Assembly: GCF_000023965.1 (NCBI RefSeq) | Contig: NC_013202.1 | Span: 1,590,001-1,622,000 of the forward strand | DNA: 32,000 bases | Direction: 5' to 3' | Source of the DNA: Halomicrobium mukohataei DSM 12286 | Lineage (GTDB): Archaea > Halobacteriota > Halobacteria > Halobacteriales > Haloarculaceae | Shown here: one piece after another, positions 7,536 through 29,303 of the stretch | Layout of the letters: the number at the start of each line of letters is the position of its first letter | Position numbering within the stretch: position 1 is the stretch's first letter | Made by a program: the position numbers and the translations under genes | Notes under the pieces: model-generated | Told to the model about the DNA's origin: nothing | Database searches by the model: none | The model's input: the letters and a program-made list of their open reading frames with translations, nothing else

Positions 7536-9434
7536 TCAGGCGAGGGGCAGGTCACGGATCTCGAAGCGCGCCCCGCCGTCGTCGCCGTCGGTGACGGTGA
7601 CGTATCCGCCGTGAGCCTCGGCGATCTCGGAGACGATCTTGAGGCCGAACCCGGTGCCGTCGTCGATGGTCGTGTAGGCAGACTGGAAGACGTCGTCGCG
7701 CTCGTCTTCGGGGATACCGGGGCCGTCGTCGGCGACGTAGAAGCCGGTCCCCTCTTCGAGGGGCCCGACGGTGATGACGACCCCTCGACCGGCGTGCTGG
7801 ACCGCGTTTCGAAAGAGATTCTCCAGGAGCTGCTGGAGACGCGTCGCGTCGCCGAGGAAACGGTCGTCGACGTCGATTCGCAGCGTCGCCTCGTCGCTTT
7901 CGACGACCGCCCAGGCGTCCTCGGCGACGGTCTCGATGTCGACCGGCGTCGGTTCCGAGACGGTCCTGCCGTCGCGTGCCACCGACAGGATGTCCTCGAT
8001 CAGCGTGTCCATCCGCTGGAGCGACCGCTCGATCGCGTCGAAGTGCTCCTCGGCCCCGGTTTCGCGTGCCACGTCGATCCGTCCGAGTGCGACGCTGAGC
8101 GGGTTGCGCAGGTCGTGGCTGACGACGCTGGCGAACTCTTCGAGCCGGTTTCGCTCGCGGGCGATCTCGTTCTGGTGACGGCGGCGCTCCTGTTCGTAGC
8201 TCACCCAGTTGCCGAGCAGTTCCACGAGGGCGATCTCCCAGTCCGAGAAGGGCTCGGTCCGTGGCTCTCGGTCGTAGAAGCAGAACGTGCCGTACACCTC
8301 GTCCTCGACCACTACGGGGGTACCGAGATAGCAGGCGATGCCATCGTCGGTGTATCCGGCGCGTTCGGCCAGTTCCGGCGCGTCCCGTGCGATGTCTTCG
8401 AGGACCAGCGTCTCTTCGGTGACGATCGCCCGCTCGCAGTTGGTCTCGTCGAGCGCGACCCGGTCCCCGGGCTGGGTGTCGCCGGTCGGATCGCGAACGA
8501 CCTCGAAGACGTACTCGTCGCCCTCTCTGGAGGAGAGCGCCCCGTAGTCGGTTCCGAGCACCGACTGGCCGATCGAGAGCAACCGATCGACCTGCTCCTC
8601 GAAGCTGAGCGTCTTCTCGGAGACGACGCGGTACATCTCCTTGAGGATGCGCTCGCGCTCCCGGAGCGTCTCGATCCGGTGCTTTCGATCCGTCACGTCC
8701 TGGAAGTACACCGAGAGCCCGTCGACCGAGGGGTAGGCCCGCACCTCGAACCACGTCCCGAGGGGCTCGTACTCGGCCTCGAAGGTCGTCACCCGCTGTT
8801 CGTCCATCGCTTCGGTGTATCGGTCGTAGAACTCCGTGTCGACGACTTCCGGCAACAGATCCCAGATTCGGGTCCCGACGAGGTCGTCGATCGACCGATC
8901 CACGTCGGCGGCGTCACACACGATCTCTCGCGCCCGTTCGTTGAGGTAGGTGAACCGCCACTCCACGTCCAGCGCGAAGAACGCGTCGGTCATGCGATCG
9001 AGGATCGCCGACTGTTCGTGCGGGCGGCTCACTGCCTCGGTGACGGTCGTGACGAGCGTGGGGAGCTGTTCTTCGAGTGGCGTCCGCCGGAGATAGCCGG
9101 TCACGTCGGCGTCGATCGCCTCGCTGGCGACCGTCTCGCTGCCGTCGTCGGTGAACAACACGAACGGGAGCGACGGGGCGCGACGCCGTATCGATCGCAG
9201 CAGCGACAGCCCACTACCGTCCGGGAGGTCCTGTTCGCTGACGACACAGTCTGTCGATCCGTCCGTCACGTGGGCAAGTGCCGTCGCCGCGTCGGCGACG
9301 TGTGTGACGCGAAACGGCCCGCTGTCGCCGAACGAGTCTCGAACCGTCGAGTCCGTGTCCGGGTCGACGTAGAGGACGTCGACGGTGTCCCCTCGCGGCG
9401 CTCGCGTTCGATCGACACTGTTCGCCCGGTCCAT
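7536..9434 (-). CDS. Hybrid sensor histidine kinase (REC-PAS-GAF-HisKA-HATPase_c)
   Basis: Receiver: VLYVDPD...CVVSEQDLPDGSGLSLLRSIR. PAS: ILDRMTDAFFALDVEWRFTYLNERA. GAF-like: LLSIGQSVLGTDYGALSS...CYLGTPVVVEDEVYGTFCFYD. H-box: FASVVSHDLRNPLSV. ATPase G-boxes: YVADDGPGIP and GTGFGLKIV. Confidence 0.9.
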   Translation of the reverse strand: MDRANSVDRTRAPRGDTVDVLYVDPDTDSTVRDSFGDSGPFRVTHVADAATALAHVTDGSTDCVVSEQDLPDGSGLSLLRSIRRRAPSLPFVLFTDDGSETVASEAIDADVTGYLRRTPLEEQLPTLVTTVTEAVSRPHEQSAILDRMTDAFFALDVEWRFTYLNERAREIVCDAADVDRSIDDLVGTRIWDLLPEVVDTEFYDRYTEAMDEQRVTTFEAEYEPLGTWFEVRAYPSVDGLSVYFQDVTDRKHRIETLRERERILKEMYRVVSEKTLSFEEQVDRLLSIGQSVLGTDYGALSSREGDEYVFEVVRDPTGDTQPGDRVALDETNCERAIVTEETLVLEDIARDAPELAERAGYTDDGIACYLGTPVVVEDEVYGTFCFYDREPRTEPFSDWEIALVELLGNWVSYEQERRRHQNEIARERNRLEEFASVVSHDLRNPLSVALGRIDVARETGAEEHFDAIERSLQRMDTLIEDILSVARDGRTVSEPTPVDIETVAEDAWAVVESDEATLRIDVDDRFLGDATRLQQLLENLFRNAVQHAGRGVVITVGPLEEGTGFYVADDGPGIPEDERDDVFQSAYTTIDDGTGFGLKIVSEIAEAHGGYVTVTDGDDGGARFEIRDLPLA

Positions 9435-9647: not shown

Positions 9648-9850
9648 ACCTACCTCGCCGTGAACGGCGAGGTTTGTCGGTGGACTCCCGGTCTGTCCAC
9701 TATACTGTGGAAGGCGAGTAGTCGCCGTTCCCGTTCACTGTTCCCGACTTCAGGGCGAGGTGATGGGTCGCCCCTCCAGAACCAGACTTGAGCCGGTTCT
9801 GGATGAATCTGTGTGCGATGTTGCGCGCCGCGTTGTAGTCGCTATGAAGT
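9648..9850 (-). ncRNA. Predicted omega (right-end) RNA scaffold of the TnpB element
   Basis: Positional inference only. In characterised TnpB systems the guide RNA overlaps the 3' end of tnpB and the right end. Here the tnpB stop (9700) lies 26 nt from the right-end hairpin (9652-9673). Exact 5' and 3' ends are unknown. Confidence 0.3.
9652..9673 (-). repeat. Right-end subterminal hairpin of the IS element
   Basis: ACCTCGCCG-TGAA-CGGCGAGGT: perfect 9-bp stem with a 4-nt loop. Confidence 0.6.
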
Positions 9851-10917
9851 TCTTTCCCGCATTTCTGGCAGGTGAACTGGTCGCCGTCGCGGTTGTCCTC
9901 GTGGGTGAAGCCACAGTCGGCGTGACTACACCGCTGGCTGGTGTAGGCCGGATGGACTGATTCGACAGCGATTCCTTCGGCACGGGCTTTGTATGTCGTC
10001 TGGCGCTTCAACTCGCGGAACGCCCACTGCTGGAATTTCGAGGCGTTCGAGATACGTTCTCGTATCTGTTCCAAGTCCTCGAACACGATTGCCGAACAGC
10101 CCCGTGACATGGCTTCTTTCACCAGTCGTTTCGACGTTTGGTGTAGAACGTCCTCGGACCAGTTAGCGAAGGTGTCACCGATTGACTGAATCGTGAGGTG
10201 TGCGCTTCGCGTCCCCTGTTGTTGTAGTCGGGCGCGACGACGTTCATACTCGCGGCGCTTGTGGTTCAGTAGGTCAGCGTTGCCGATGAACGCTCCTGTA
10301 CTGGTGACAGCAAGATACCCGTCGACGTTCCGGTCTACGCCGAGAACTGTTCGGCTCTCGGCCTCTTCCAACGAATCTTCGCGTTCCTGTTTGACGGAAA
10401 CGTGCAAGTAGTAGGTATCGGTCTGATGGTCGTATCGGAGTTTCGCGCCTTGTTTGGTCCACTCGCTACTCTCCATGTATTCGGCCTGGAGCGAGTCGTC
10501 TGGGTAGACGTATTCAGCATGAACACGCCCACTTCCGTAAGCGGCCAGCGAACAGTATCCGTCGAAGTAACTGATTGCACTGGTGTTGTAGACGGTCGTG
10601 TTCGACGTGAACACAGGTTTTGAGGGGCGTTCGCCAGCTTTCATTTTGTCTACACAGCCGGTAAGCGCGTCGGCGGCATGGTTGACGGCGGCCACGGTCA
10701 AGTCTGAGTGAAGGCCGGTGTCGTCCCGTATGTCGTCGTAGACGAGCGGTTGTAGTCGAGAGCGCGACGTTATCACGTACCCATTGTCATCTCTTTCCCA
10801 TCCCCGGTTGGCAAACCGCTGTGCAGCGTCCCGAAACGTGTTCATCGTTCGTTTCAGGTCGTCGCGCCGCTGGTCGGGGACGGAAAGTTTGACGACAGCA
10901 GTACGCTGAATCTCCAT
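9700..10917 (-). CDS. tnpB: TnpB (IS605 OrfB-type) RuvC-like RNA-guided endonuclease
   Basis: 405 aa. RuvC motifs VLGVDRNVDG (D), SAIVFEDL (E) and HSDYNAARNIAHRF (D). Zinc finger CSHADCGFTHEDNRDGDQFTCQKCG between them. The ORF appears intact. Confidence 0.9.
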   Translation of the reverse strand: MEIQRTAVVKLSVPDQRRDDLKRTMNTFRDAAQRFANRGWERDDNGYVITSRSRLQPLVYDDIRDDTGLHSDLTVAAVNHAADALTGCVDKMKAGERPSKPVFTSNTTVYNTSAISYFDGYCSLAAYGSGRVHAEYVYPDDSLQAEYMESSEWTKQGAKLRYDHQTDTYYLHVSVKQEREDSLEEAESRTVLGVDRNVDGYLAVTSTGAFIGNADLLNHKRREYERRRARLQQQGTRSAHLTIQSIGDTFANWSEDVLHQTSKRLVKEAMSRGCSAIVFEDLEQIRERISNASKFQQWAFRELKRQTTYKARAEGIAVESVHPAYTSQRCSHADCGFTHEDNRDGDQFTCQKCGKELHSDYNAARNIAHRFIQNRLKSGSGGATHHLALKSGTVNGNGDYSPSTV

Positions 10918-10941
10918 CTACACATCACAAGTGGGACTAAC

Positions 10942-10956
10942 TATATATAAATAATT
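10942..10956 (-). promoter_or_regulatory. AT-rich TATA-like box upstream of tnpB
   Basis: TATATATAAATAATT lies about 25-40 nt upstream of the tnpB ATG (10917) inside the element's left end. Confidence 0.4.
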
Positions 10957-11011
10957 GGGAGTAGGCCGGGAATTGAACGGTGGATAGTCACTAGAGCTTA
11001 CGCGATTCCCG

Positions 11012-22165: not shown

Positions 22166-23686
22166 TCACTCGACCGACGCGAGGGCCTCGGTGTCGCCCA
22201 GCGCCGGATAGTCCTCGAAGATCGCGGTGGCGGTGTGTTCGCCGCTGATGAGACACATCGGCATCCCGATCCCCGGCGTCGTGTAGGCCCCGGTGTAGTA
22301 GAAGCCGTCCAGTGGACCGCGGTGACTCGGTCGGAAGGGACCGGTCTGGAACAGGGTGTGTGCGAGACCCAGCGCCGTCCCGTCGGGGTCACCGTAGCGG
22401 TCGGCGAACTCGCTGACGCAGGCCGTCGTCTCCGAGACGATCCGATCGCGGAGGTCCACGCCGGTGTGTTCTGCCAGATCCGTGAGGACCTGCTCGCGGA
22501 ACCGCTCGCGCACGTCCGGAGCGTCGTCGAGACCCGGAGCGATCGGGACGAGCGCGACGACCGCGTGGTGTCCGTCGGGAGCGACGGTGTCGTCGGTCTT
22601 CGAGGTCACCGAGAGGTAGTAGGCCGGATCGTCGGGCCAGCGCGGCTCGTCGAAGATCGCCTCGAAGTGGTCCGACCAGTCCGTCGGCAAGACGAGCGTG
22701 TGATGTTCGAGCGGGTCCACGTCGCCCTCGACGCCGAGATACAGCAAGAACGCCGACGGCGCGTAGGTCTGGTCGTCCCAGTATCCGGGGTCGTGTGCGC
22801 GGTCCCGGTCGTCGAGCAGCGCTCGCTCGGTGTCGGCCGGGTTGGCGTTGCTGACGACGAGGTCGCTCTCTACGAGGCCGTCGTCGGTCGACAGTTCGAA
22901 CTGACCGGCCTCGCCGCCGACGTGCTGGACCTCGACGCCGGTCCGGATGGTGACGCCTTGCTCGCGGGCCAGCTCCGCCAGCGCGTCGACGACGCCAGCG
23001 ATACCCCCCTCCGGGTAGAAGACGTTCAGGTTCAGGTCGACGTGACTCATGATCGAGTACAGCGCAGGGGTGTTGTACGGCGAGCCACCGAGGAAGACGA
23101 GGGTGTACTCCAGGAGCTGACGGAGCTTCGGGTGCTCGACGTAGCGGCTCACGTAGTCGTCTATGTTCCCGAACAGGCGATAGCGCGGTGCCATCGGGAG
23201 CAGGTCGGTGTCGACGAACTCTCGGAGTCGCTCACGGCCCTCGTAGACGACGCGATCCATCGCCAGCTCGTAGTTGCGCTCGGCGTCGTCGAGGTACGCG
23301 GCGAGTGCCTCGCCGGCCCCCTCCTCGTAGGACTCGAAGATCGCCTCGACGCGGTCGCGATCGGGCGGGACCGTCACGCTGTCGCCGTCCTTCCAGCACA
23401 CCCGGTACTGTGGATCGAGTCGCTCCAGTTCGTAGTAGTCACCCGGTTCGCGGTCGAAGTGAGCGAAGAACCGCTCGAACACGTCGGGCATCAGGTACCA
23501 GGACGGTCCCGTGTCGAACCGGAACCCGTCGCGTTCGAGTACACCGGCGTGACCCCCGACCCGGTCGTGGCGTTCGAGGAGTCGCACGTCCAGTCCTGCC
23601 CGTCCGAGGTACGCGGCCGCCGAGAGGCCGCCGAACCCGCCGCCGATCACCGTCACCGTCGGATCGCCCGAGCGCCGACTTTGCAT
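22166..23686 (-). CDS. crtI: Phytoene-desaturase-family (CrtI/CrtD-type) FAD-dependent carotenoid desaturase
   Basis: ORF 22166..24211 trimmed to MQSRRSGDPTVTVIGGGFGGLSAAAYLGRAGLDVRLLERHDRVGGHAGVLERDGFRFDTGPSWYLMPDVFE (ATG 23686). C-terminal GFYYTGAYTTPGIGMPMCLISG. CrtI cannot be distinguished from CrtD by eye. Confidence 0.85.
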   Translation of the reverse strand: MQSRRSGDPTVTVIGGGFGGLSAAAYLGRAGLDVRLLERHDRVGGHAGVLERDGFRFDTGPSWYLMPDVFERFFAHFDREPGDYYELERLDPQYRVCWKDGDSVTVPPDRDRVEAIFESYEEGAGEALAAYLDDAERNYELAMDRVVYEGRERLREFVDTDLLPMAPRYRLFGNIDDYVSRYVEHPKLRQLLEYTLVFLGGSPYNTPALYSIMSHVDLNLNVFYPEGGIAGVVDALAELAREQGVTIRTGVEVQHVGGEAGQFELSTDDGLVESDLVVSNANPADTERALLDDRDRAHDPGYWDDQTYAPSAFLLYLGVEGDVDPLEHHTLVLPTDWSDHFEAIFDEPRWPDDPAYYLSVTSKTDDTVAPDGHHAVVALVPIAPGLDDAPDVRERFREQVLTDLAEHTGVDLRDRIVSETTACVSEFADRYGDPDGTALGLAHTLFQTGPFRPSHRGPLDGFYYTGAYTTPGIGMPMCLISGEHTATAIFEDYPALGDTEALASVE

Positions 23687-23755
23687 GCCCGTCGCTAGCG
23701 GTCCCGTCGTTTTGAGGGCACCTGCCGTTCCCACACACTGGGAGTTAGGTATTCC

Positions 23756-23765
23756 ACTTTTTTCA
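23756..23765 (+). promoter_or_regulatory. T-rich TATA-like element for the Brp/Blh gene
   Basis: ACTTTTTTCA is centred about 28 nt upstream of ATG 23788, in the 101-bp divergent crtI/brp spacer. Confidence 0.3.
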
Positions 23766-23787
23766 CGAACGACGCTAGGGTCCGACG

Positions 23788-24852
23788 ATGCGCCCGACGG
23801 AGACCCTCTCGGCGTGGCGGCTGTACCGGGACGTGGACACACACCCGTCGCTCGGACTCTCTCGGGCCGCACTGCTGGTCTTGCTGGTCGGGTTCGGCGG
23901 GCTCGCACTCGCCGGGATCGAGGTTCCGCTCCGGGCCCAGATGGTCGTCTACCTCGTCGGGATGGTCGCGCTGAACCTCCCACACGGCGGGTACGAGCAC
24001 TTCGAGAACCTCCGGCGGCGACGGCCGACGGTCCGGTGGCGGTACGTCGGAGCGTACCTGCTGGCCATCGGTGCCTTCGTGGGACTCTTTTTGCTCGCGC
24101 CGGTCGCGGGGCTCGCGCTCGCCCTGGTGGTCGCGATGGCGAAAGGCGGGCTCGGTGGGCTCCACGTGCTCGCGGCGACGAGTGGGACCGGACACCTGCA
24201 GACCCGTCCACAGCGTGCGCTCGCGATCGCCGTCCGGGGCGGTGCGGTCATGCTCGTCCCCATCGTCTTCCACCCGACGACGTTCCACAGCTTCAGCTCG
24301 CTCATGGTCGGGCTCGTCGAACCCGGCGCGCTCGCGGCCTACAGCGGCCAGTTCGACCTGACCCGGCGCGTGATCGCCGTCGGCTACGCGCTCGCGCTGG
24401 GCGCGCACGTCGGACTGGGCTACGTCCGGGGCGGCGGCCGCTCGTGGCTCGTCGACGCGGGCGAGTCCGTCCTGCTGGCCGCGTACTTCGCCGTCGTGCC
24501 CGTGCTGGTCGCGGTCGGTCTGTACTTCCCGTTCTGGTACTCGGCCCGCCAGGTCGCTCGGACGGCGACCGTCGAGGCCGAACCGGTCGGCGACGACGAG
24601 TGGGATCTGGTCGGGGGCAGCTCGGCGTCGACGGTGGCGCTGCGCGCGTGGGGCATCCTGATCGCCGGTGCGCTGGCGACGTTCGCCGTGCTCGCGGTCG
24701 TCTACTGGCTGTTCCCCAACCCCCTCGCCGGTACCGCCGCACTCCCCGGTGCAGTCGCGTTCTGGAGCGTCTTCATCAGTATCGTCGCGCTCCCACACGT
24801 CCTCGTGGGCTCGCTGCTGGACCGCGACCGGGGCATCTGGTACGTTCCCTGA
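23788..24852 (+). CDS. Brp/Blh-family beta-carotene 15,15'-dioxygenase (retinal-forming)
   Basis: 354-aa polytopic membrane protein with conserved His-containing motifs: VALNLPHGGYEHFEN, GGLGGLHVL, ALGAHVGLGY, FPFWYSARQ, SIVALPHVLVGSLLD. Confidence 0.8.
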   Translation: MRPTETLSAWRLYRDVDTHPSLGLSRAALLVLLVGFGGLALAGIEVPLRAQMVVYLVGMVALNLPHGGYEHFENLRRRRPTVRWRYVGAYLLAIGAFVGLFLLAPVAGLALALVVAMAKGGLGGLHVLAATSGTGHLQTRPQRALAIAVRGGAVMLVPIVFHPTTFHSFSSLMVGLVEPGALAAYSGQFDLTRRVIAVGYALALGAHVGLGYVRGGGRSWLVDAGESVLLAAYFAVVPVLVAVGLYFPFWYSARQVARTATVEAEPVGDDEWDLVGGSSASTVALRAWGILIAGALATFAVLAVVYWLFPNPLAGTAALPGAVAFWSVFISIVALPHVLVGSLLDRDRGIWYVP

Positions 24853-25536
24853 CTACGGCAGCGTGAACGGCTGCCAGCCGTCCGGCTGACCGCGCAGGCC
24901 GCGCACGCGCAACTCGCCGTCGGCGTCGCCGTCCTCCGGTTCCCGGACTTCGATCCGCCCGTCGGCCACCTGACTGATCGTGTTGACCGTCTTCGTGTCG
25001 TGAGTCGTCGGATCGATCGAGAACAGCCCCAGTCCACCGGCGCTGTCGATCCGACCCGAGAGCGTCTGGACGAACCGGAACAGCGCCCGCATGTCGACGT
25101 ACATCGACAGCGACGAGAGGCTGACCAGCCCGGTCCGGACGCGGCCGTCGGCGGCGTCGGCGTACAGCGACTCGTACAGCGCCGAGAAGCGCATCCCGAT
25201 GCCGGTGAGGTCGCTCTGGGTCGAGATCGACCTGACCCTGAGATCGAACTGCGACTCGGCGAGGTCCTGTCCGGTACAGTCGATGACGCCCGCCCGGTCG
25301 GTGTCGAACGACGGGTGGAGTCGACGGCAGCTGTCGAGCAGCGTCTCGCAGCTCTGGTTGGTCGAGACGAACAGCATGCCGTCGCCCGTCTCCGTCCCGT
25401 CGGCGACCATCGAGCGGACGAGGTCCTCGGCGCGGCTCAGCGCCGGCCCGGCGACCAGCACGGTCGAACCCGCCTCGATCGGTTCGATCGGGACGCCGTC
25501 GCCGAACTCGTAGACGCCGTCGGCTCCGCCGCTCAT
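24853..25536 (-). CDS. KaiC/RecA-fold protein with degenerate P-loop (probable non-catalytic signalling adaptor)
   Basis: Trimmed to MSGGADGVYEFGDGVPIEPIEAGSTVLVAGPALSRAEDL (ATG 25536). The layout follows KaiC-like ATPases (..MLFVSTNQS.., ..TGLVSLSSLSMYV.., ..GLGLFSIDPT.., ..VADGRIEV..) but lacks GxxxxGK[ST]. Its ATG overlaps the upstream stop (ATGA). Confidence 0.65.
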   Translation of the reverse strand: MSGGADGVYEFGDGVPIEPIEAGSTVLVAGPALSRAEDLVRSMVADGTETGDGMLFVSTNQSCETLLDSCRRLHPSFDTDRAGVIDCTGQDLAESQFDLRVRSISTQSDLTGIGMRFSALYESLYADAADGRVRTGLVSLSSLSMYVDMRALFRFVQTLSGRIDSAGGLGLFSIDPTTHDTKTVNTISQVADGRIEVREPEDGDADGELRVRGLRGQPDGWQPFTLP

Positions 25537-26453
25537 GGCTCTTCTCCGTCCGTCTCGACGCCGCCGTCCAGTCGGGCGTGGAGTTCGATCACGTCCATGG
25601 CGACGGCCGCCAGATCGCGGAGATACGCTTCGTCGGCCGCCGAGAACGAACGCGGCTCGTCGTCGTAGATACACAGCGGCCCGATCACGAGCCCGCTCCT
25701 GGTCACGAGGTTCGCGCCCAGGTACGCCCGGATCCCCATGTCCAGGAGCGTGTCGCTGCGGGACTCGAAGCGCGGGTCCTCGGTCACGTCCTCGACGGCG
25801 AGCACGTCGTCGTCTTCGACGATCGTGAACGTACAGATAGAGTCCTGCCGGTCCATCGTGTCCCACTCGTTGGCCCCGCCGTAGCAGGCCAGAAAGTCCT
25901 GACTGTGCTCGCTGATGATGTTGATCGAGGCGCGCTCGACCGAGAAGTGCGTGGCCGCCAGGTCGGTGATGCGGTCCAGGGATTCGAGCAGTGCCCGATC
26001 GTCGAGATCGTACGACTGGAGGGCCGCCAGCCGCTCGCGTTCGTTCTGTGGCAGCGGGTACGAGGCCTGTGACTTGCCCTCAACAGTCGTCTGGAGCAGT
26101 CTGGCCAGTCGTTCGGTCCCGAACACCGAGCCCTTGCCGACGTACTCGGTGATGGTCCCGCGCAGTTCGTCGGTGCTGATGGCGTCCGGAGCGGCGTCAG
26201 TATAGAGGATACAGCCCGCGTCCGGCGCGGTGTCACGGACCGCAGTCACCAGTTCCAGGCCCGTTCCGTCGGCCAGGTCGTACTCCGTGACGACGGCGGC
26301 CAGGTCGGTCGAGACGGCTGTTGTCGCGTCGTCGAGGGTCGCCGCGGTCTCGAAGACCGGGTCGAACTCCGTGAGCTCGGTCCGGAGCCGTTCGACCGTG
26401 TCCTGGCGGGCGTCCTCGTCGGGATCGACACAGAGGATGCGATGAGACGGCAT
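25533..26453 (-). CDS. Response-regulator receiver + GAF domain protein
   Basis: MPSHRILCVDPDEDARQ...AVVTEYDLADGTGLELVTAVR (REC). LPQNERERLAALQSYDL...AYLGANLVTRSGLVIGPLCIYDDEPRSF (GAF). The ATG at 26453 is preferred over the GTG at 26477 because a TATA-like TACATA lies about 30 nt upstream. Confidence 0.85.
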   Translation of the reverse strand: MPSHRILCVDPDEDARQDTVERLRTELTEFDPVFETAATLDDATTAVSTDLAAVVTEYDLADGTGLELVTAVRDTAPDAGCILYTDAAPDAISTDELRGTITEYVGKGSVFGTERLARLLQTTVEGKSQASYPLPQNERERLAALQSYDLDDRALLESLDRITDLAATHFSVERASINIISEHSQDFLACYGGANEWDTMDRQDSICTFTIVEDDDVLAVEDVTEDPRFESRSDTLLDMGIRAYLGANLVTRSGLVIGPLCIYDDEPRSFSAADEAYLRDLAAVAMDVIELHARLDGGVETDGEEP

Positions 26454-26527
26454 GCTGTTGGCTACATCGTCTGCCACGAGCGGTATGTACGTACTGGCCG
26501 AAGTATCAACAGCGAAAACTGCGCGCC

Positions 26528-28180
26528 CTACTCAGTGCCAAGCACCGCGTCGAGCGTCGCGTCGTCGACGTGGCGGCCTTCCCGGCCCGCCGTGTAGGTC
26601 TTTGCGACGGCGATGGCCCGTCCGGTCCGGGAGTCGCCCAGATCCGGCGAGAGCTCCGACTCCAGCAGGTCGGTCGTCCACGAGCACTCCTCGTAGTCGA
26701 TTTCACCGGCGACGAGGCCCAGACACAGCGAGACGACGATGTCGTTCATCGCGTCGGTGACGAACGCCGGGGTCGCTCCGCTGATCGCTCCCAGCTGCTC
26801 TACGTCGACCTGCGTCCCGTTGACCGTCGCAGCGAACACGACCGAGCCGGCGGCCAGCTCGGGGGCCGTGTAGTCGCCGTCCGGTTCGTCGGCCGCGTAC
26901 CGTTCGAGCGTCCGCCGACTCTCCTCGGCGACGGCGTCGGAGAGTTCCAGTTCGGCGACGAGATCCGAGACGATCTCCGCCGGGCTGGGGCTGGGGATGT
27001 CCGCGTCGATTGCCTCGTCCAGCGCGCCCAGCGTCTGCACGACCGCGCGGGCCTCGACGGGCCGGTGGGCGGCCACGTCCCCAGCGTCGGTGTCGGCCTC
27101 GTTCAGTCGCAGCCCCGCGACGAGTGTCGCACCCGCCAGCTCGGTCGCGTTCGACACGTCGACCTCGCCGACGGCGTCGCCCACCATCCCGCGAGCGAGC
27201 AGGCGCGTCGGCGCGTCGACGTCGAGCTCCTCGACCAGCGCGTCGATCTCGTCTTCGACCGCTTGGACGGTCACGTCGGGCTCTGCCTCTGTCACCGCGG
27301 TCTCGGGTTCGTCGCCCGCGTCTCCCGGTGTCGGCCCGGAAGGAGTCTCGCCGTCCGCGTCTCCCGGTGTCGGCCCGGAAGGAGTCTCGCCGTCCGCGTC
27401 TCCCGGTGTCGGCCCGGAGGGAGTCTCGCCGTCCGCGTCTCCCGGTGTGGTCTCGTCGGGCTCTGCAGCCGACTGCTCCTCTGCTTCGCCAGCGCCGTCG
27501 GTGGCCGTCGCGGCTTCGGCCGGCTGGGCGACCTGTCCCTCCGTCTCGGCGCTCATCTGGTAGCGCTCGTCTTGCAGTCGGTCACCGAGCAGGCGTTTGA
27601 GCGCCTCCGCGCGGTTCTCGATCGCCACGCGGCTGGTCTTCGAGGCCCCGCTGAGGACGTTCTGTACGTCCTCCGCGTCGTGGCCGTTGACCAGCGCCGC
27701 CAGCGACAGCGCACCCCCGGCGGTCGCCCCCGGCGAGCGCCCGTTCGCGATCACCTCGGGATTCAGCTCGAAGGCGTCAAGCAGGATCCGGTGTGCCACG
27801 TCGACCAGCGAGTCGGGCATCTCGACGGCCAGGCCCAGGCGGTCGGCGAGCGCCTGTGGCTTGGGCGGGACCTCGTCGACGTCGAGGTAGACGCTCGCGG
27901 TGTCGAGTTGCTGCTCGGTGATCGTGATCTCTCGGTCGTCGAGCAGCTCGGACCACGCGCTCGCGACCGTCTCCTCGTCGACCGGGAGCCCGTCCTCGCG
28001 AGCCGACAGGACCAGTGCCGCCGCAAGGAAGTCGTCGATGTTCCCCTCGTCGATCTCGGGCTTGTTGCGCAGCTGTCCCAGCCGGACCTGAGTGATCTGT
28101 AACGTCTCTTTCGGTATCTGGAGTTGCTCGCAGACGCGGAGCAACCGATCCTCGACGCCGTCTCCTGCACTACTTGCCAT
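26528..28180 (-). CDS. Double TFB-core (four cyclin-fold repeats) protein without zinc ribbon or B-reader, with acidic repeat linker
   Basis: The N-half aligns by eye with the archaeal TFB core: LLRVCEQLQIPKETLQITQ...DDFLAAALVLSAREDGLPVDEETVA and NGRSPGATAGGALSLAALVNGHDAEDVQNVLSGASKTSRVAIENRAEALKRLL. The C-half repeats the pattern: LVEELDVDAPTRLLARGMV...ELAGATLVAGLRL and ELAAGSVVFAATVNGTQVDVEQLGAISGATPAFVTDAMNDIV. There is no CxxC ribbon at the N-terminus. Confidence 0.7.
   Translation of the reverse strand: MASSAGDGVEDRLLRVCEQLQIPKETLQITQVRLGQLRNKPEIDEGNIDDFLAAALVLSAREDGLPVDEETVASAWSELLDDREITITEQQLDTASVYLDVDEVPPKPQALADRLGLAVEMPDSLVDVAHRILLDAFELNPEVIANGRSPGATAGGALSLAALVNGHDAEDVQNVLSGASKTSRVAIENRAEALKRLLGDRLQDERYQMSAETEGQVAQPAEAATATDGAGEAEEQSAAEPDETTPGDADGETPSGPTPGDADGETPSGPTPGDADGETPSGPTPGDAGDEPETAVTEAEPDVTVQAVEDEIDALVEELDVDAPTRLLARGMVGDAVGEVDVSNATELAGATLVAGLRLNEADTDAGDVAAHRPVEARAVVQTLGALDEAIDADIPSPSPAEIVSDLVAELELSDAVAEESRRTLERYAADEPDGDYTAPELAAGSVVFAATVNGTQVDVEQLGAISGATPAFVTDAMNDIVVSLCLGLVAGEIDYEECSWTTDLLESELSPDLGDSRTGRAIAVAKTYTAGREGRHVDDATLDAVLGTE
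27318..27448 (-). repeat. 39-bp perfect or near-perfect tandem repeat, 3.4 copies, in-frame inside the TFB-like gene
   Basis: Unit GCGTCTCCCGGTGTCGGCCCGGAAGGAGTCTCGCCGTCC at 27318, 27357 and 27396 (one mismatch in copy 3), plus a 14-nt partial copy. It encodes TPGDADGETPSGP x3. Confidence 0.95.
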
Positions 28181-28205
28181 AGTGCAGTCGTTCACGCTTC
28201 ACTGT

Positions 28206-28217
28206 CTTAACTTTTGG
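28206..28217 (-). promoter_or_regulatory. TATA-like element for the TFB-like gene
   Basis: The reverse strand reads CCAAAAGTTAAG, about 30 nt upstream of ATG 28180. Confidence 0.3.
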
Positions 28218-28286: not shown

Positions 28287-29303
28287 TCACCGCTCGTCTG
28301 CTGGCCCGAGGCCGGGGACGGCGACGGCCGCTTCGAGCCGATCCATCGCCAGCGCGGTCGTCAACACCAGCGCGAGATACAGAACCGCCACGACGACGTA
28401 GGTGTCGGTGACCCGGAAGCTATCGGAGGCGATGATCCGGGCCTGTCGGAACAGCTCGGGCACGGTGATGAACGCGGCCAGCGAGGAGTACTTGATGAGA
28501 TAGACGAACTCGTTGGTCCAGCCGGGAATCGCGTAGCGCAACCCCTGTGGCAGGACGACGTGGCGGATCCCCGCCGCCTTCGAGAGGCCGATCGATCGGG
28601 CGGCCACGAGTTGTCCGCTGTCGACCGACTGGAGCGCGCCCCGGATGTACTCGGCCTGGTAGGCCGAGGAGTTGATCGTGAAGCCGACGATCGCCACGAA
28701 GACGGCCGCCCGTGGCACGGCTCCCTCGCCGACGAGCCCGAGCCCCTCGATCTCCTCTGCCAGGGGGAGCCCGTAGTACAGTAAGAACAGCTGGGCGAGC
28801 AGCGGCGTCCCGCGAACGAGCTCCGTGTACGCGAGCGAGACGGTGCCGACGATCCGCCCGCCGTAGACCCGCGCGACGGAGAGCGGGACGGCGATCGCCA
28901 GTCCGAGCACCATCGACGCGAGCGTCAGGTACACCGTGATGAAGGCACCGGCGGCCATCGCCGGCCCGCCCTCGATGGCGAAGGCAGTCAGTTCGAACGG
29001 CCAGGCGAGCCACTCCGCGAGGAGTCCGAGCGGCCCCAGATCGGCACCGACAGCGGTCAGGGTCTCGGCGGCGTTCGCGAACGGTGCGGTCGGGAGCCAC
29101 GGCTCGCGAGCGAGCACCGCCGTCTCCGAGCGGATCAGGTCCGGGACGCCAAGCGCCGTGGCGACGGCGTCGAGGACCGTGTTGTGGTAGGCCCAGCGCA
29201 GCGACAGCCACGTCCAGAAGACGACGCCGACGGTCACGACGGCGACGCGTCGCCGGCCCGGCAGATCGCCGACGGCGGCGGGTTGGGTCTGGTCCGTGCT
29301 CAT
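28287..29303 (-). CDS. Polar amino-acid ABC transporter permease (His/Glu/Gln/Arg/opine family) with long N-terminal extension
   Basis: Trimmed to MSTDQTQPAAV (ATG 29303, overlapping the upstream stop by 1 nt). Permease core: YTELVRGTPLLAQLFLLYYGLP...SSAYQAEYIRGALQSVDSGQLVAARSIGLSKAAGIRHVVLPQGLRYAIPGWTNEFVYLIKYSSLA. Confidence 0.85.
   Translation of the reverse strand: MSTDQTQPAAVGDLPGRRRVAVVTVGVVFWTWLSLRWAYHNTVLDAVATALGVPDLIRSETAVLAREPWLPTAPFANAAETLTAVGADLGPLGLLAEWLAWPFELTAFAIEGGPAMAAGAFITVYLTLASMVLGLAIAVPLSVARVYGGRIVGTVSLAYTELVRGTPLLAQLFLLYYGLPLAEEIEGLGLVGEGAVPRAAVFVAIVGFTINSSAYQAEYIRGALQSVDSGQLVAARSIGLSKAAGIRHVVLPQGLRYAIPGWTNEFVYLIKYSSLAAFITVPELFRQARIIASDSFRVTDTYVVVAVLYLALVLTTALAMDRLEAAVAVPGLGPADER

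What the first reader, a model, noticed from the sequence alone, without database searches (positions are those of the whole stretch)
26528..28180. Zinc-ribbon-less tandem-duplicated TFB core protein (four cyclin folds): possible TBP/DNA decoy or specialised initiation factor
The N-terminal 200 aa or so match the two cyclin repeats of archaeal TFB, down to the GRSP...A..Y.A... and T..T.RNR-like segments (NGRSPGATAGGALSLAAL...SRVAIENRAEAL). After an acidic linker, a second, more divergent pair of cyclin-like repeats follows.

The protein starts directly at cyclin repeat 1. It therefore lacks the Zn-ribbon, B-reader and B-linker that recruit RNA polymerase and open the promoter.

Inference: such a protein could bind TBP-DNA without supporting initiation (a repressor or anti-TFB), or it could scaffold two TBP/promoter complexes. 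It sits directly upstream of, and co-directional with, a REC-GAF regulator and a degenerate KaiC-like protein.
Basis: partly seen in the sequence, partly recalled or inferred. Interest (0 to 1): 0.65.

Follow-up and report, generated by a model that had tools for sequence, protein, structure and literature searches.

The report
Zinc-ribbon-less double TFB-core protein
This haloarchaeal gene encodes two complete copies of the promoter-binding core of transcription initiation factor TFB but lacks the part that recruits RNA polymerase. It belongs to a conserved, unstudied family confined to one archaeal family, and it probably modulates rather than starts transcription.

Summary
Window 26528-28180 (minus strand) is a real 550-aa gene. 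Residues 8-205 and 303-492 are each a full two-cyclin TFB/TFIIB core. A disordered acidic linker containing a 39-bp tandem repeat joins them, and a conserved 58-aa tail follows. There is no zinc ribbon, B-reader or B-linker, and no upstream coding room for them.

About 80 homologues share this architecture. All that carry an organism name are from Haloarculaceae. Both cores and the tail are under purifying selection.

New points:
- 43 of 79 members carry a winged-helix-like insert in the linker. The window's clade has lost it.
- Most members keep the canonical BRE-reading helix (EVTVRNRY). The window protein has VAIENR.
- The second core has no basic residues in the equivalent helix.
- Each core resembles generic TFB cores more than it resembles the other core, so "tandem duplication" is not proven.
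- The REC-GAF/DUF7504 neighbourhood is not conserved beyond this species.
- Bare zinc-less TFB cores, and double-core TFBs that do have a zinc ribbon, exist elsewhere.

Function is untested. The most likely role is a non-initiating binder of TBP/promoter complexes, or a protein adaptor. I rate it a new variant of a known kind, of moderate interest.

The parts
26528..28180 (-). Complete gene, 550 aa plus stop: zinc-ribbon-less double TFB-core protein
   Evidence: ORF. Start fixed by homologue alignment and by an upstream stop. Acidic composition and GC3 of 0.86, typical of real haloarchaeal genes. 78 homologues.
28205..28217 (-). A/T-rich TATA-like box (CCAAAAGTTAAGA) about 31 nt upstream of the ATG. 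Candidate promoter of a leaderless or short-leader transcript.
   Evidence: Read directly from the sequence. This is an inference only; there are no transcript data.
27881..28159 (-). First core, cyclin repeat 1 (aa 8-100). Contains the invariant REDGLP motif at aa 61-66.
   Evidence: AF2 helices 9-19, 24-38, 48-62, 69-79 and 89-98, pLDDT above 90. Aligned to human TFIIB from residue 119. Invariant columns.
27566..27880 (-). First core, cyclin repeat 2 (aa 101-205), with the GRSP motif and the HTH equivalent to the BRE-recognition helix
   Evidence: Profile alignment to P. woesei TFB residues 105-194, E 1.9e-12 for the domain. Pfam TFIIB repeat at aa 111-168, E 1.2e-3, below threshold.
27599..27634 (-). 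Degenerate BRE-recognition helix SRVAIENRAEAL (aa 183-194). The canonical TFB sequence is EVTVRNRYKEL.
   Evidence: Alignments. At aa 188, 45 of 79 family members have R, 12 have K, 15 have Q, and only the Halomicrobium clade has E.
27275..27565 (-). Disordered acidic linker (aa 206-302). In 43 of 79 relatives this region holds a winged-helix-like insert of about 60 aa, which is absent here.
   Evidence: pLDDT below 50 for aa 213-299. Mean pairwise identity 0.31, against 0.54-0.64 for the rest of the protein. Insert census. Weak hits to several wHTH Pfam families.
27309..27448 (.). 39-bp tandem repeat, 3.6 copies, 97% matches, encoding TPGDADGETPSGP three times. Copy number differs between strains.
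   Evidence: TRF result. The H. katesii DSM 19301 orthologue is 26 aa shorter at exactly this place.
26705..27274 (-). Second TFB core (aa 303-492): two cyclin repeats, very acidic, with no basic residues in the equivalent recognition helix (FVTDAMNDIVV)
   Evidence: hhalign against a canonical TFB core: 99.2%, E 3.5e-19. AF2 model of the C half. Foldseek TFIIB/TFB top hits. Alignment and charge, where the C-half segment used (aa 300-550, so including the tail) has net charge -41.
26531..26704 (-). Conserved C-terminal tail (aa 493-550; W501, GDSxTGR, AKTYxAGRE). It is the best-conserved segment of the family, modelled as two or three helices after the second core.
   Evidence: Mean pairwise identity 0.64, the highest of all segments. 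Invariant W501, Y529, A531, G532 and R533. Helices 517-534 and 540-547.

Best explanation
**What it is (shown).** The gene encodes a lineage-specific paralogue of archaeal transcription factor B. It consists of two complete TFB cores, each with two cyclin repeats, joined by a disordered acidic linker and followed by a conserved tail. It has none of the N-terminal elements (zinc ribbon, B-reader, B-linker) that canonical TFB uses to recruit RNA polymerase and open the promoter.

**How it most likely works (inferred).**
- The first core docks on TBP-bound promoters in the same way TFB does. Across the family it keeps the TFB signature of the BRE-reading helix, and most members add a winged-helix-like domain.
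- Because it cannot recruit polymerase, occupancy would block or re-route initiation. It would act as a competitor of the many haloarchaeal TFBs.
- The second core has lost the basic DNA-reading residues but is at least as conserved as the first. Together with the tail, it is likely a protein-binding effector module whose partner is unknown.
- In the Halomicrobium variant in this window, the winged helix has been lost and the key helix reads VAIENR. Sequence-specific DNA reading is probably weakened, so action would rest mainly on protein contacts, for example with TBP.
For: - **Architecture:**
- **No zinc ribbon anywhere in the family:** all homologues start at the same position.
- **Real, constrained gene:** about 80 homologues across six genera of Haloarculaceae. 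Against H. katesii, the folded parts show 15 synonymous and 4 nonsynonymous codon differences, while the linker shows 6 and 7.
- **BRE-helix signature:** (E)VTVRNR(Y) is kept in most members, with R or K at the key position in 57 of 79.
- **Extra domain:** a wHTH-like insert is present in 43 of 79.
- **Domain roles in canonical TFB:** taken from PMC13502027, read. [quoted passage not shown]
- **Second core:** no basic residues in the recognition helix, and net charge -41 for aa 300-550, i.e. second core plus tail.
Against: - No binding to TBP or DNA was tested, and no complex could be modelled here.
- Both cores are much more acidic than the haloarchaeal TFB cores at hand: net -21 (N half) and -41 (C half including the tail), against about +1 to -11. 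This argues against strong DNA binding.
- In this protein the position aligned with human TFIIB R286 is Glu, and the wHTH is missing.
- There is no conserved gene neighbourhood to hint at a pathway.
- Residue-level TBP contacts could not be checked.
Confidence: 0.4

Rival explanations
1. It is a pure protein-protein adaptor. The cyclin folds have been re-used, as in cyclins or the Rb pocket, to bind partners off DNA. Possible partners are TBP sequestered in solution, RNAP subunits or other regulators. There would be no promoter binding.
For: - Extreme acidity of both halves.
- The second core lacks basic recognition-helix residues.
- The best-conserved part is the non-TFB tail.
- The window variant has lost the wHTH and the basic residue in the BRE helix.
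Against: Near-canonical EVTVRNRY is conserved in most members and in the most divergent genera, and 43 of 79 carry a wHTH-like insert. Both are hard to explain without DNA contact, at least ancestrally.
Confidence: 0.3
2. It is a specialised positive initiation factor, working either as a split TFB or by an alternative recruitment route. The cores would bind TBP/BRE, and polymerase would be recruited through the second core plus tail, or through a separately encoded zinc-ribbon/B-reader protein. This would be the mirror image of Sulfolobus TFB3, which has the N-terminal part but no core.
For: - TFB parts occur in varied combinations. Bare cores exist (P0104, checked). Cores with C-terminal CxxC repeats exist (P0108). 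Double cores with zinc ribbons exist (P0157 and P0088).
- The strongly conserved tail could be a docking element.
Against: No zinc-ribbon partner gene lies nearby or is conserved in synteny. Nothing in the tail resembles a known RNAP-dock-binding element. B-reader and B-linker functions in promoter opening would still be missing (PMC13502027).
Confidence: 0.12
3. It is the output or partner of the adjacent REC-GAF/DUF7504 (KaiC-like) signalling pair, forming one functional module.
For: Co-directional adjacency in the window, with a gap of about 50 nt. A REC-HalX gene lies downstream in Halapricum salinum.
Against: Homologues of REC-GAF and DUF7504 are next to the gene only in H. katesii and in none of 14 other loci. 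No neighbour is conserved beyond genus level. The spacer contains a T-run and a TATA-like box, and REC-GAF/DUF7504 overlap by ATGA as a unit of their own.
Confidence: 0.05
4. It is a decaying TFB paralogue with no function.
For: For the window protein, Pfam and NCBIfam scores fall below the curated cut-offs.
Against: The full-length architecture is conserved across six genera. Identity is 54-64% in all folded segments against 31% in the linker. Synonymous changes outnumber nonsynonymous ones in the folded parts. The AF2 models are confident.
Confidence: 0.03

Closest known systems
Archaeal TFB / eukaryotic TFIIB (core domain; PDB 1d3u, 1ais, 1vol, 1c9b)
   Same: Both halves are homologous to the whole two-cyclin core in sequence profile and in fold. 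The first half keeps the GxSP motif, and most of the family keeps the VTVRNR(Y) BRE helix.
   Different: There is no zinc ribbon, B-reader or B-linker. There are two cores instead of one, plus an extra conserved tail. The protein is far more acidic. Curated family cut-offs are not reached: NCBIfam 34.7 bits against 384, Pfam 19.3 against 23.6.
Brf1/Brf2 and Rrn7/TAF1B (TFIIB-related factors with long C-terminal extensions)
   Same: A TFIIB-type cyclin pair is followed by a long C-terminal region. Brf1 is hit by the family profile at E 4e-10. Brf2 is found by Foldseek at E 9e-4 over about 269 columns. JGI labels some members with the COG name "TFIIIB Brf1 subunit/TFIIB".
   Different: Those factors have the zinc ribbon and linker. 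Their extensions are TBP-anchoring or Bdp1-binding segments, not a second cyclin pair. The Brf1 similarity here is confined to the cyclin region.
Sulfolobus TFB3 and Pyrococcus TFB2 (naturally truncated or degenerate TFB paralogues)
   Same: They are lineage-specific TFB paralogues that lack part of the canonical domain set and act as modulators (PMC6101594 abstract; PMC13502027).
   Different: The truncation is the opposite one. As far as I recall, TFB3 keeps the N-terminal part and lacks the core. [quoted passage not shown] Here the N-terminal part is missing entirely and the core is doubled.
Stand-alone zinc-ribbon-less TFB-core proteins and double-core TFBs from metagenomes (uncharacterised; P0104, P0092, P0097, P0099; P0157, P0088)
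   Same: The bare cores of about 200 aa lack a zinc ribbon. For P0104 this was verified by upstream stops. P0157 and P0088 carry two full TFB cores in one chain. hhalign of the N half against these bare cores gives E 1.9e-27.
   Different: None of them combines both traits. The double-core proteins still have a zinc ribbon, and the bare cores have a single core. They lack the conserved tail and the wHTH insert. None has been studied, as far as the searched literature shows.
ORC6, cyclins and the Rb pocket (other proteins built of paired cyclin folds)
   Same: All have a paired five-helix cyclin-fold architecture. There is a weak Pfam ORC6_2nd hit at aa 405-472 (E 0.034), and cyclins appear lower in the Foldseek list.
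   Different: These matches are much weaker than the TFB/TFIIB matches: cyclins at E of about 1e-3 or worse with rmsd of about 15-17 Å, and ORC6 below threshold. There is no evidence of membership.

Membership tests
Canonical TFB/TFIIB general initiation factor | N-terminal zinc ribbon (CxxC...CxxC) that docks on RNA polymerase | tested here: not met
   The protein starts 8 residues before the first cyclin helix. It has only three isolated Cys residues (17, 486, 499). An upstream stop and a neighbouring gene leave no coding room. All homologues start at the same point.
Canonical TFB/TFIIB general initiation factor | B-reader and B-linker between the ribbon and the core | tested here: not met
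   The TFB profile aligns only from position 131 of 312. Human TFIIB aligns only from residue 119.
Canonical TFB/TFIIB general initiation factor | Core of two cyclin repeats | tested here: met
   Met twice. aa 8-205. aa 303-492.
Canonical TFB/TFIIB general initiation factor | HTH in repeat 2 with the BRE-reading helix (EVTVRNRY-type) | tested here: inconclusive
   The family keeps it in most members. The window protein has VAIENR, with Glu at the position I recall as equivalent to human TFIIB R286. The second core has no basic residues in that helix. DNA binding itself was not tested.
Canonical TFB/TFIIB general initiation factor | Binds TBP-DNA and supports initiation | not testable with these tools
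   This needs biochemistry or modelling of the complex.
Canonical TFB/TFIIB general initiation factor | Reaches curated family cut-offs (NCBIfam PRK00423 at 384 bits; Pfam PF00382 at 23.6 bits) | tested here: not met
   34.7 bits and 19.3 bits for the window protein. 60 of 79 family members match PF00382 at E <= 1e-3.
Brf1/Brf2-type TFIIB-related factors | Zinc ribbon plus a C-terminal TBP-binding extension (homology blocks or anchor) | tested here: not met
   There is no ribbon. The profile match to Brf1 is driven by the cyclin region and continues only as a gappy, low-complexity alignment into the acidic linker. The C-terminal region here is a second TFB core.
ORC6 | Match to ORC6 cyclin-like domain models | tested here: not met
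   PF21913 at E 0.034, 15.1 bits against a cut-off of 27. TFIIB/TFB matches are far stronger.
Haloarculaceae double TFB-core family (defined here) | Zinc-less TFB core, acidic linker, second TFB core, and a tail with W...GDSxTGR...AKTYxAGRE | tested here: met
   The window protein aligns end to end with 78 homologues at 33-97% identity. The tail invariants W501, Y529, A531, G532 and R533 are present.
Haloarculaceae double TFB-core family (defined here) | Winged-helix-like insert in the linker (PDELPTT...RKRAGS..VW.P) | tested here: not met
   Present in 43 of 79 members. Absent from the window protein and its closest relatives P0001-P0009.

The most novel reading that the evidence does not exclude
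The family is a natural anti-TFB. The first core, helped in most members by the winged helix, would sit on TBP/BRE at selected promoters exactly as TFB does. The DNA-blind second core plus tail would then hold a second partner, such as another TBP paralogue, a TFB or RNAP. That would give Haloarculaceae a general-factor mimic that represses or re-programmes promoter choice among their many TBP/TFB pairs. It would be the first general-factor decoy described in archaea. It would also be a living example of a four-CLR/HTH initiation-factor relative of the kind postulated in the sigma/TFB homology hypothesis (PMC4581349), although here it is clearly derived rather than ancestral.
Probability: 0.2. 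Interest if true: 0.7.

Novelty: new variant of a known kind. Interest (0 to 1): 0.5.

Why it matters
Haloarchaea are the model for regulation through multiple TBP and TFB paralogues. A conserved paralogue that keeps the promoter- and TBP-binding core twice but cannot recruit polymerase would add a negative or adaptor layer to that system. That role is filled in bacteria by anti-sigma factors and has no described TFB-based counterpart in archaea.

The family, together with the bare cores and the double-core TFBs seen in passing, shows that the TFB core is a mobile, reusable module. Databases currently call these proteins "hypothetical" or "TFIIB family". The domain map given here makes the question directly testable.

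Tried and rejected
- **Single-sequence phmmer against PDB.** It gave only low-complexity linker matches to Sen34. A family profile was needed.
- **Foldseek on the full-length model.** The output does not say which half was aligned. I therefore modelled aa 300-550 alone and searched again.
- **"Tandem duplication".** I tested it with hhalign and HMM cross-scores. The halves are homologous, but each is closer to generic TFB cores than to the other, so the origin is unresolved. The comparison sets were picked by similarity to the C half and are biased.
- **Synteny with REC-GAF/DUF7504 or any other neighbour.** Rejected.
- **Defence-system or viral origin.** No PADLOC or PHROGs match for the protein.
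- **Literature.** Seven full-text searches and six papers read found no description of this family or of double-core or zinc-less TFBs in archaea. The library lacks most subscription journals, so absence is not proof.
- **Residue-level mapping of TBP and DNA contacts.** Abandoned. Model coordinates are not exposed. The papers reached gave no contact list. The search for TFIIB V283/R286 found nothing usable. The equivalence of aa 188 to TFIIB R286 therefore rests on my recollection of Lagrange 1998 and Tsai & Sigler 2000.
- **Complex prediction with TBP.** Not possible.
Full report
**1. The observation**

The finding's coordinates correspond to a minus-strand ORF, 26528-28195 counted from a GTG, with an ATG at 28180 that gives 550 aa. 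A TGA lies two codons upstream of the GTG. The next same-strand gene upstream, an ABC-transporter permease, ends at 28287. The spacer of about 100 nt contains an A/T-rich box, CCAAAAGTTAAGA, about 31 nt before the ATG. All 78 homologues begin at the position of this ATG with MSS/MAS...D.SVE.RL. The start is therefore sound, and no upstream exon or alternative start can supply a zinc ribbon. The protein has three isolated cysteines and no CxxC motif. Its composition (21% D+E, 6% K+R, GC3 0.86) is that of a genuine haloarchaeal gene. The long antisense ORF is Arg-rich, which is the usual frame artefact.

**2. Both halves are TFB cores**

*N half.* NCBIfam's TFB model aligns aa 13-196 to profile positions 131-304 of 312, E 1e-8. 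A profile of the family hits the Pyrococcus woesei TFB core (1d3u/1ais) at E 7e-13, human TFIIB residues 119-290 at E 1e-8, and yeast Brf1 at E 4e-10.

*C half.* hhalign against a profile of 32 zinc-ribbon-bearing TFB cores gives 99.2%, E 3.5e-19, over 177 columns. The N half gives 99.5%, E 4e-23. A search of 1.84 billion representative proteins with the C-half profile found the family itself, then a sharp drop, and then a tail of hits at E 1e-11 to 1e-4; every one of the ten or so I examined is a TFB-family protein.

*Models.* AlphaFold2 models are confident. The full-length model has pLDDT above 90 in both halves and below 50 for aa 213-299. The C half alone has pLDDT 89 and pTM 0.84. Each half has 5+5 helices. 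Foldseek of the C-half model against the PDB returns TFIIB/TFB cores first: 5iy7_M at 6e-6, and 1d3u_B at 1.3e-5 with TM 0.63 over 185 columns. Brf1 and Brf2 come next, and cyclins follow only with much poorer superpositions.

The description as four cyclin folds in two TFB-type cores without ribbon, reader or linker is confirmed.

**3.

(a) *The family.* About 80 homologues of 510-650 aa share the architecture. The named ones come from Halomicrobium, Haloarcula/Halomicroarcula, Halovenus, Halorhabdus, Halapricum and Halorientalis. All six are genera of Haloarculaceae. Only 11 clusters at 50% identity exist in the 1.84-billion-protein library. The window itself is from a strain very close to Halomicrobium katesii DSM 19301, with flanking proteins 97-99% identical.

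(b) *Constraint.* Mean pairwise identity across the family is as follows.

| Segment | Mean pairwise identity |
|---|---|
| Four cyclin repeats | 0.54-0.59 |
| C-terminal tail | 0.64 |
| Linker | 0.31 |

Against H. katesii, the folded parts differ at 15 synonymous and 4 nonsynonymous codons. The linker differs at 6 and 7, and also carries a 26-aa indel. The indel falls in a 39-bp, 3.6-copy tandem repeat at 27309-27448 that encodes TPGDADGETPSGP.

(c) *A lost domain.* In 43 of 79 members the linker holds a conserved insert of about 60 aa, (V)LETVRS.YPDELPTT..VAE......A...L..L...G.L.RKRAGS..VW.P. It gives weak but consistent hits to winged-helix families such as GntR, TrmB, HTH_69, LexA and TFIIE-alpha. 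The most divergent genera have it. The window protein and its nearest relatives do not.

(d) *The DNA-reading helix.* Canonical TFB reads the BRE with the HTH of repeat 2 (PMC13502027). Most family members keep (E)VTVRNR(Y). At aa 188 there are 45 R, 12 K, 15 Q, 1 H, 1 T and 5 E. All five with E belong to the Halomicrobium clade, which reads VAIENR. From memory, this position matches TFIIB R286, a BRE-contacting residue; I could not verify that here. The equivalent helix of the second core, FVTDAMNDIVV, has no basic residue in any member.

(e) *Charge.* The N half (aa 1-205) has net charge -21 and the C half (aa 300-550, including the tail) -41. Halophile-type canonical TFB cores in hand range from about +1 to -11, although these were measured on partial envelopes.

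(f) *Origin.* N against C gives hhalign E 1e-8, and cross-half HMM scores are low, with medians of 9-14 bits. Each half scores far better against generic TFB cores and against bare zinc-less cores (E 1.9e-27 and 6.4e-23). An old intragenic duplication and a fusion of two paralogues cannot be told apart. The comparison set is biased, because it was collected with the C-half profile.

**4. Surroundings**

Downstream lie a REC-like/GAF protein (25533-26477) and a DUF7504 KaiC/RecA-like protein (24853-25536). Their stop and start overlap as ATGA. The 50-nt gap after the TFB-like gene contains a T-run and a TATA-like TTGATACTT. This pair accompanies the gene only in H. katesii. None of 14 loci from other species has either gene within about 5 kb, and no neighbour is conserved beyond genus level. 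The gene therefore behaves as a stand-alone unit, and the proposed functional link is not supported. There are no PADLOC or PHROGs matches.

**5. Mechanism**

*Shown.* The protein is a conserved, zinc-ribbon-less protein with two TFB cores and a conserved tail.

*Inferred.* A protein with this domain set can at most occupy the TFB position on TBP-promoter complexes. It cannot carry out the polymerase-directed steps. The family-wide retention of the BRE-helix signature and the frequent winged helix argue that promoter binding is, or was, part of its job. The DNA-blind but highly conserved second core and tail look like a partner-binding module.

I therefore favour a non-initiating competitor or modulator of TFB at TBP-bound promoters (confidence about 0.4 for the whole statement; the architectural part is near certain). 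In the Halomicrobium variant the DNA-reading parts are degraded, which shifts weight towards action through protein contacts.

*Rivals.*
- A purely protein-binding adaptor (0.3).
- A specialised positive factor that recruits RNAP by another route or with a trans-acting ribbon protein (0.12).
- A module with the REC-GAF/DUF7504 pair (0.05).
- A decaying paralogue (0.03).

**6. Comparison and novelty**

The protein is a member of the TFB/TFIIB superfamily by homology. It fails the defining features of a canonical TFB (ribbon, reader/linker, curated cut-offs) and of Brf-type factors. Some database entries already call relatives "transcription initiation factor IIB family protein", or carry the COG label "Brf1/TFIIB". 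Recognition as TFIIB-like is therefore not new.

What I found no description of, in seven full-text searches and six papers, is:
- the double core without a ribbon;
- the tail;
- the variable winged helix;
- the restriction to Haloarculaceae.

Related unstudied forms exist:
- bare cores of about 200 aa (P0104, confirmed by upstream stops);
- a core followed by an HTH (P0087);
- a core followed by CxxC repeats (P0108);
- zinc-ribbon TFBs with a second full core (P0157 and P0088).

I rate the finding a new variant of a known kind, with interest 0.5. It would not astonish a specialist, given the known radiation of haloarchaeal TFBs. It does offer a concrete, testable candidate for a TFB-based negative regulator.

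Noticed in passing
Family members P0010-P0078 (e.g. P0011 aa ~255-320); absent from window 27275-27565: 43 of 79 family members carry a conserved winged-helix-like insert of about 60 aa in the linker (PDELPTT...RKRAGS..VW.P). The window's clade lacks it, and the loss pattern suggests more than one loss.
   Followed up: partly
window 27309-27448: A 39-bp tandem repeat of 3.6 copies inside the coding linker. The H. katesii DSM 19301 orthologue has two copies fewer (26 aa), so this is a strain-level length polymorphism.
   Followed up: yes
P0157 (515 aa), P0088/P0226 (542 aa); locus L016:3001-4629: Metagenomic archaeal TFBs that have a zinc ribbon and then two full TFB cores in one chain (canonical-core HMM hits at 115-297 and 336-510 in P0157). 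This is an independent double-core architecture, apparently undescribed.
   Followed up: partly
P0104 (L017:3001-3582), P0092, P0097, P0099, P0114; also P0087 and P0108: Stand-alone TFB cores of about 200 aa without a zinc ribbon. For P0104 this was verified by stop codons throughout the 480 nt upstream. Variants exist with a C-terminal HTH (P0087) or C-terminal CxxC repeats (P0108). 47 such candidates were among the 145 weaker hits.
   Followed up: partly
window 24853-26477 (-): A REC-like/GAF gene and a DUF7504 (KaiC/RecA-like) gene overlap by ATGA at 25533-25536, so they look translationally coupled. The REC domain scores below Pfam threshold (E 0.0086). The GAF part matches a phage protein family of unknown function (phrog_14602, E 2e-25).
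   Followed up: partly
window 9700-10917 (-), inside the GC dip at 10001-11000 (GC 0.55 against about 0.68): A 405-aa ORF with a Cas12f1-like TNB domain (TnpB-type, IS200/IS605-like) lies in a low-GC island. It is probably an inserted mobile element.
   Followed up: no
window 7536-9434 (-): A hybrid sensor kinase with REC-PAS-GAF-HisKA-HATPase domains lies about 17 kb from the REC-GAF gene. It could be a signalling partner.
   Followed up: no
window 22166-24852: A divergent pair of carotenoid/retinal genes: a phytoene-desaturase-like amine oxidase on the minus strand, and a beta-carotene 15,15'-dioxygenase (Brp/Blh type, PF15461, E 2e-74) on the plus strand at 23788-24852.
   Followed up: no
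locus L014 (Haloarcula rara plasmid unnamed1, 247.6 kb): One family member is plasmid-borne, so the gene can sit on secondary replicons.
   Followed up: no
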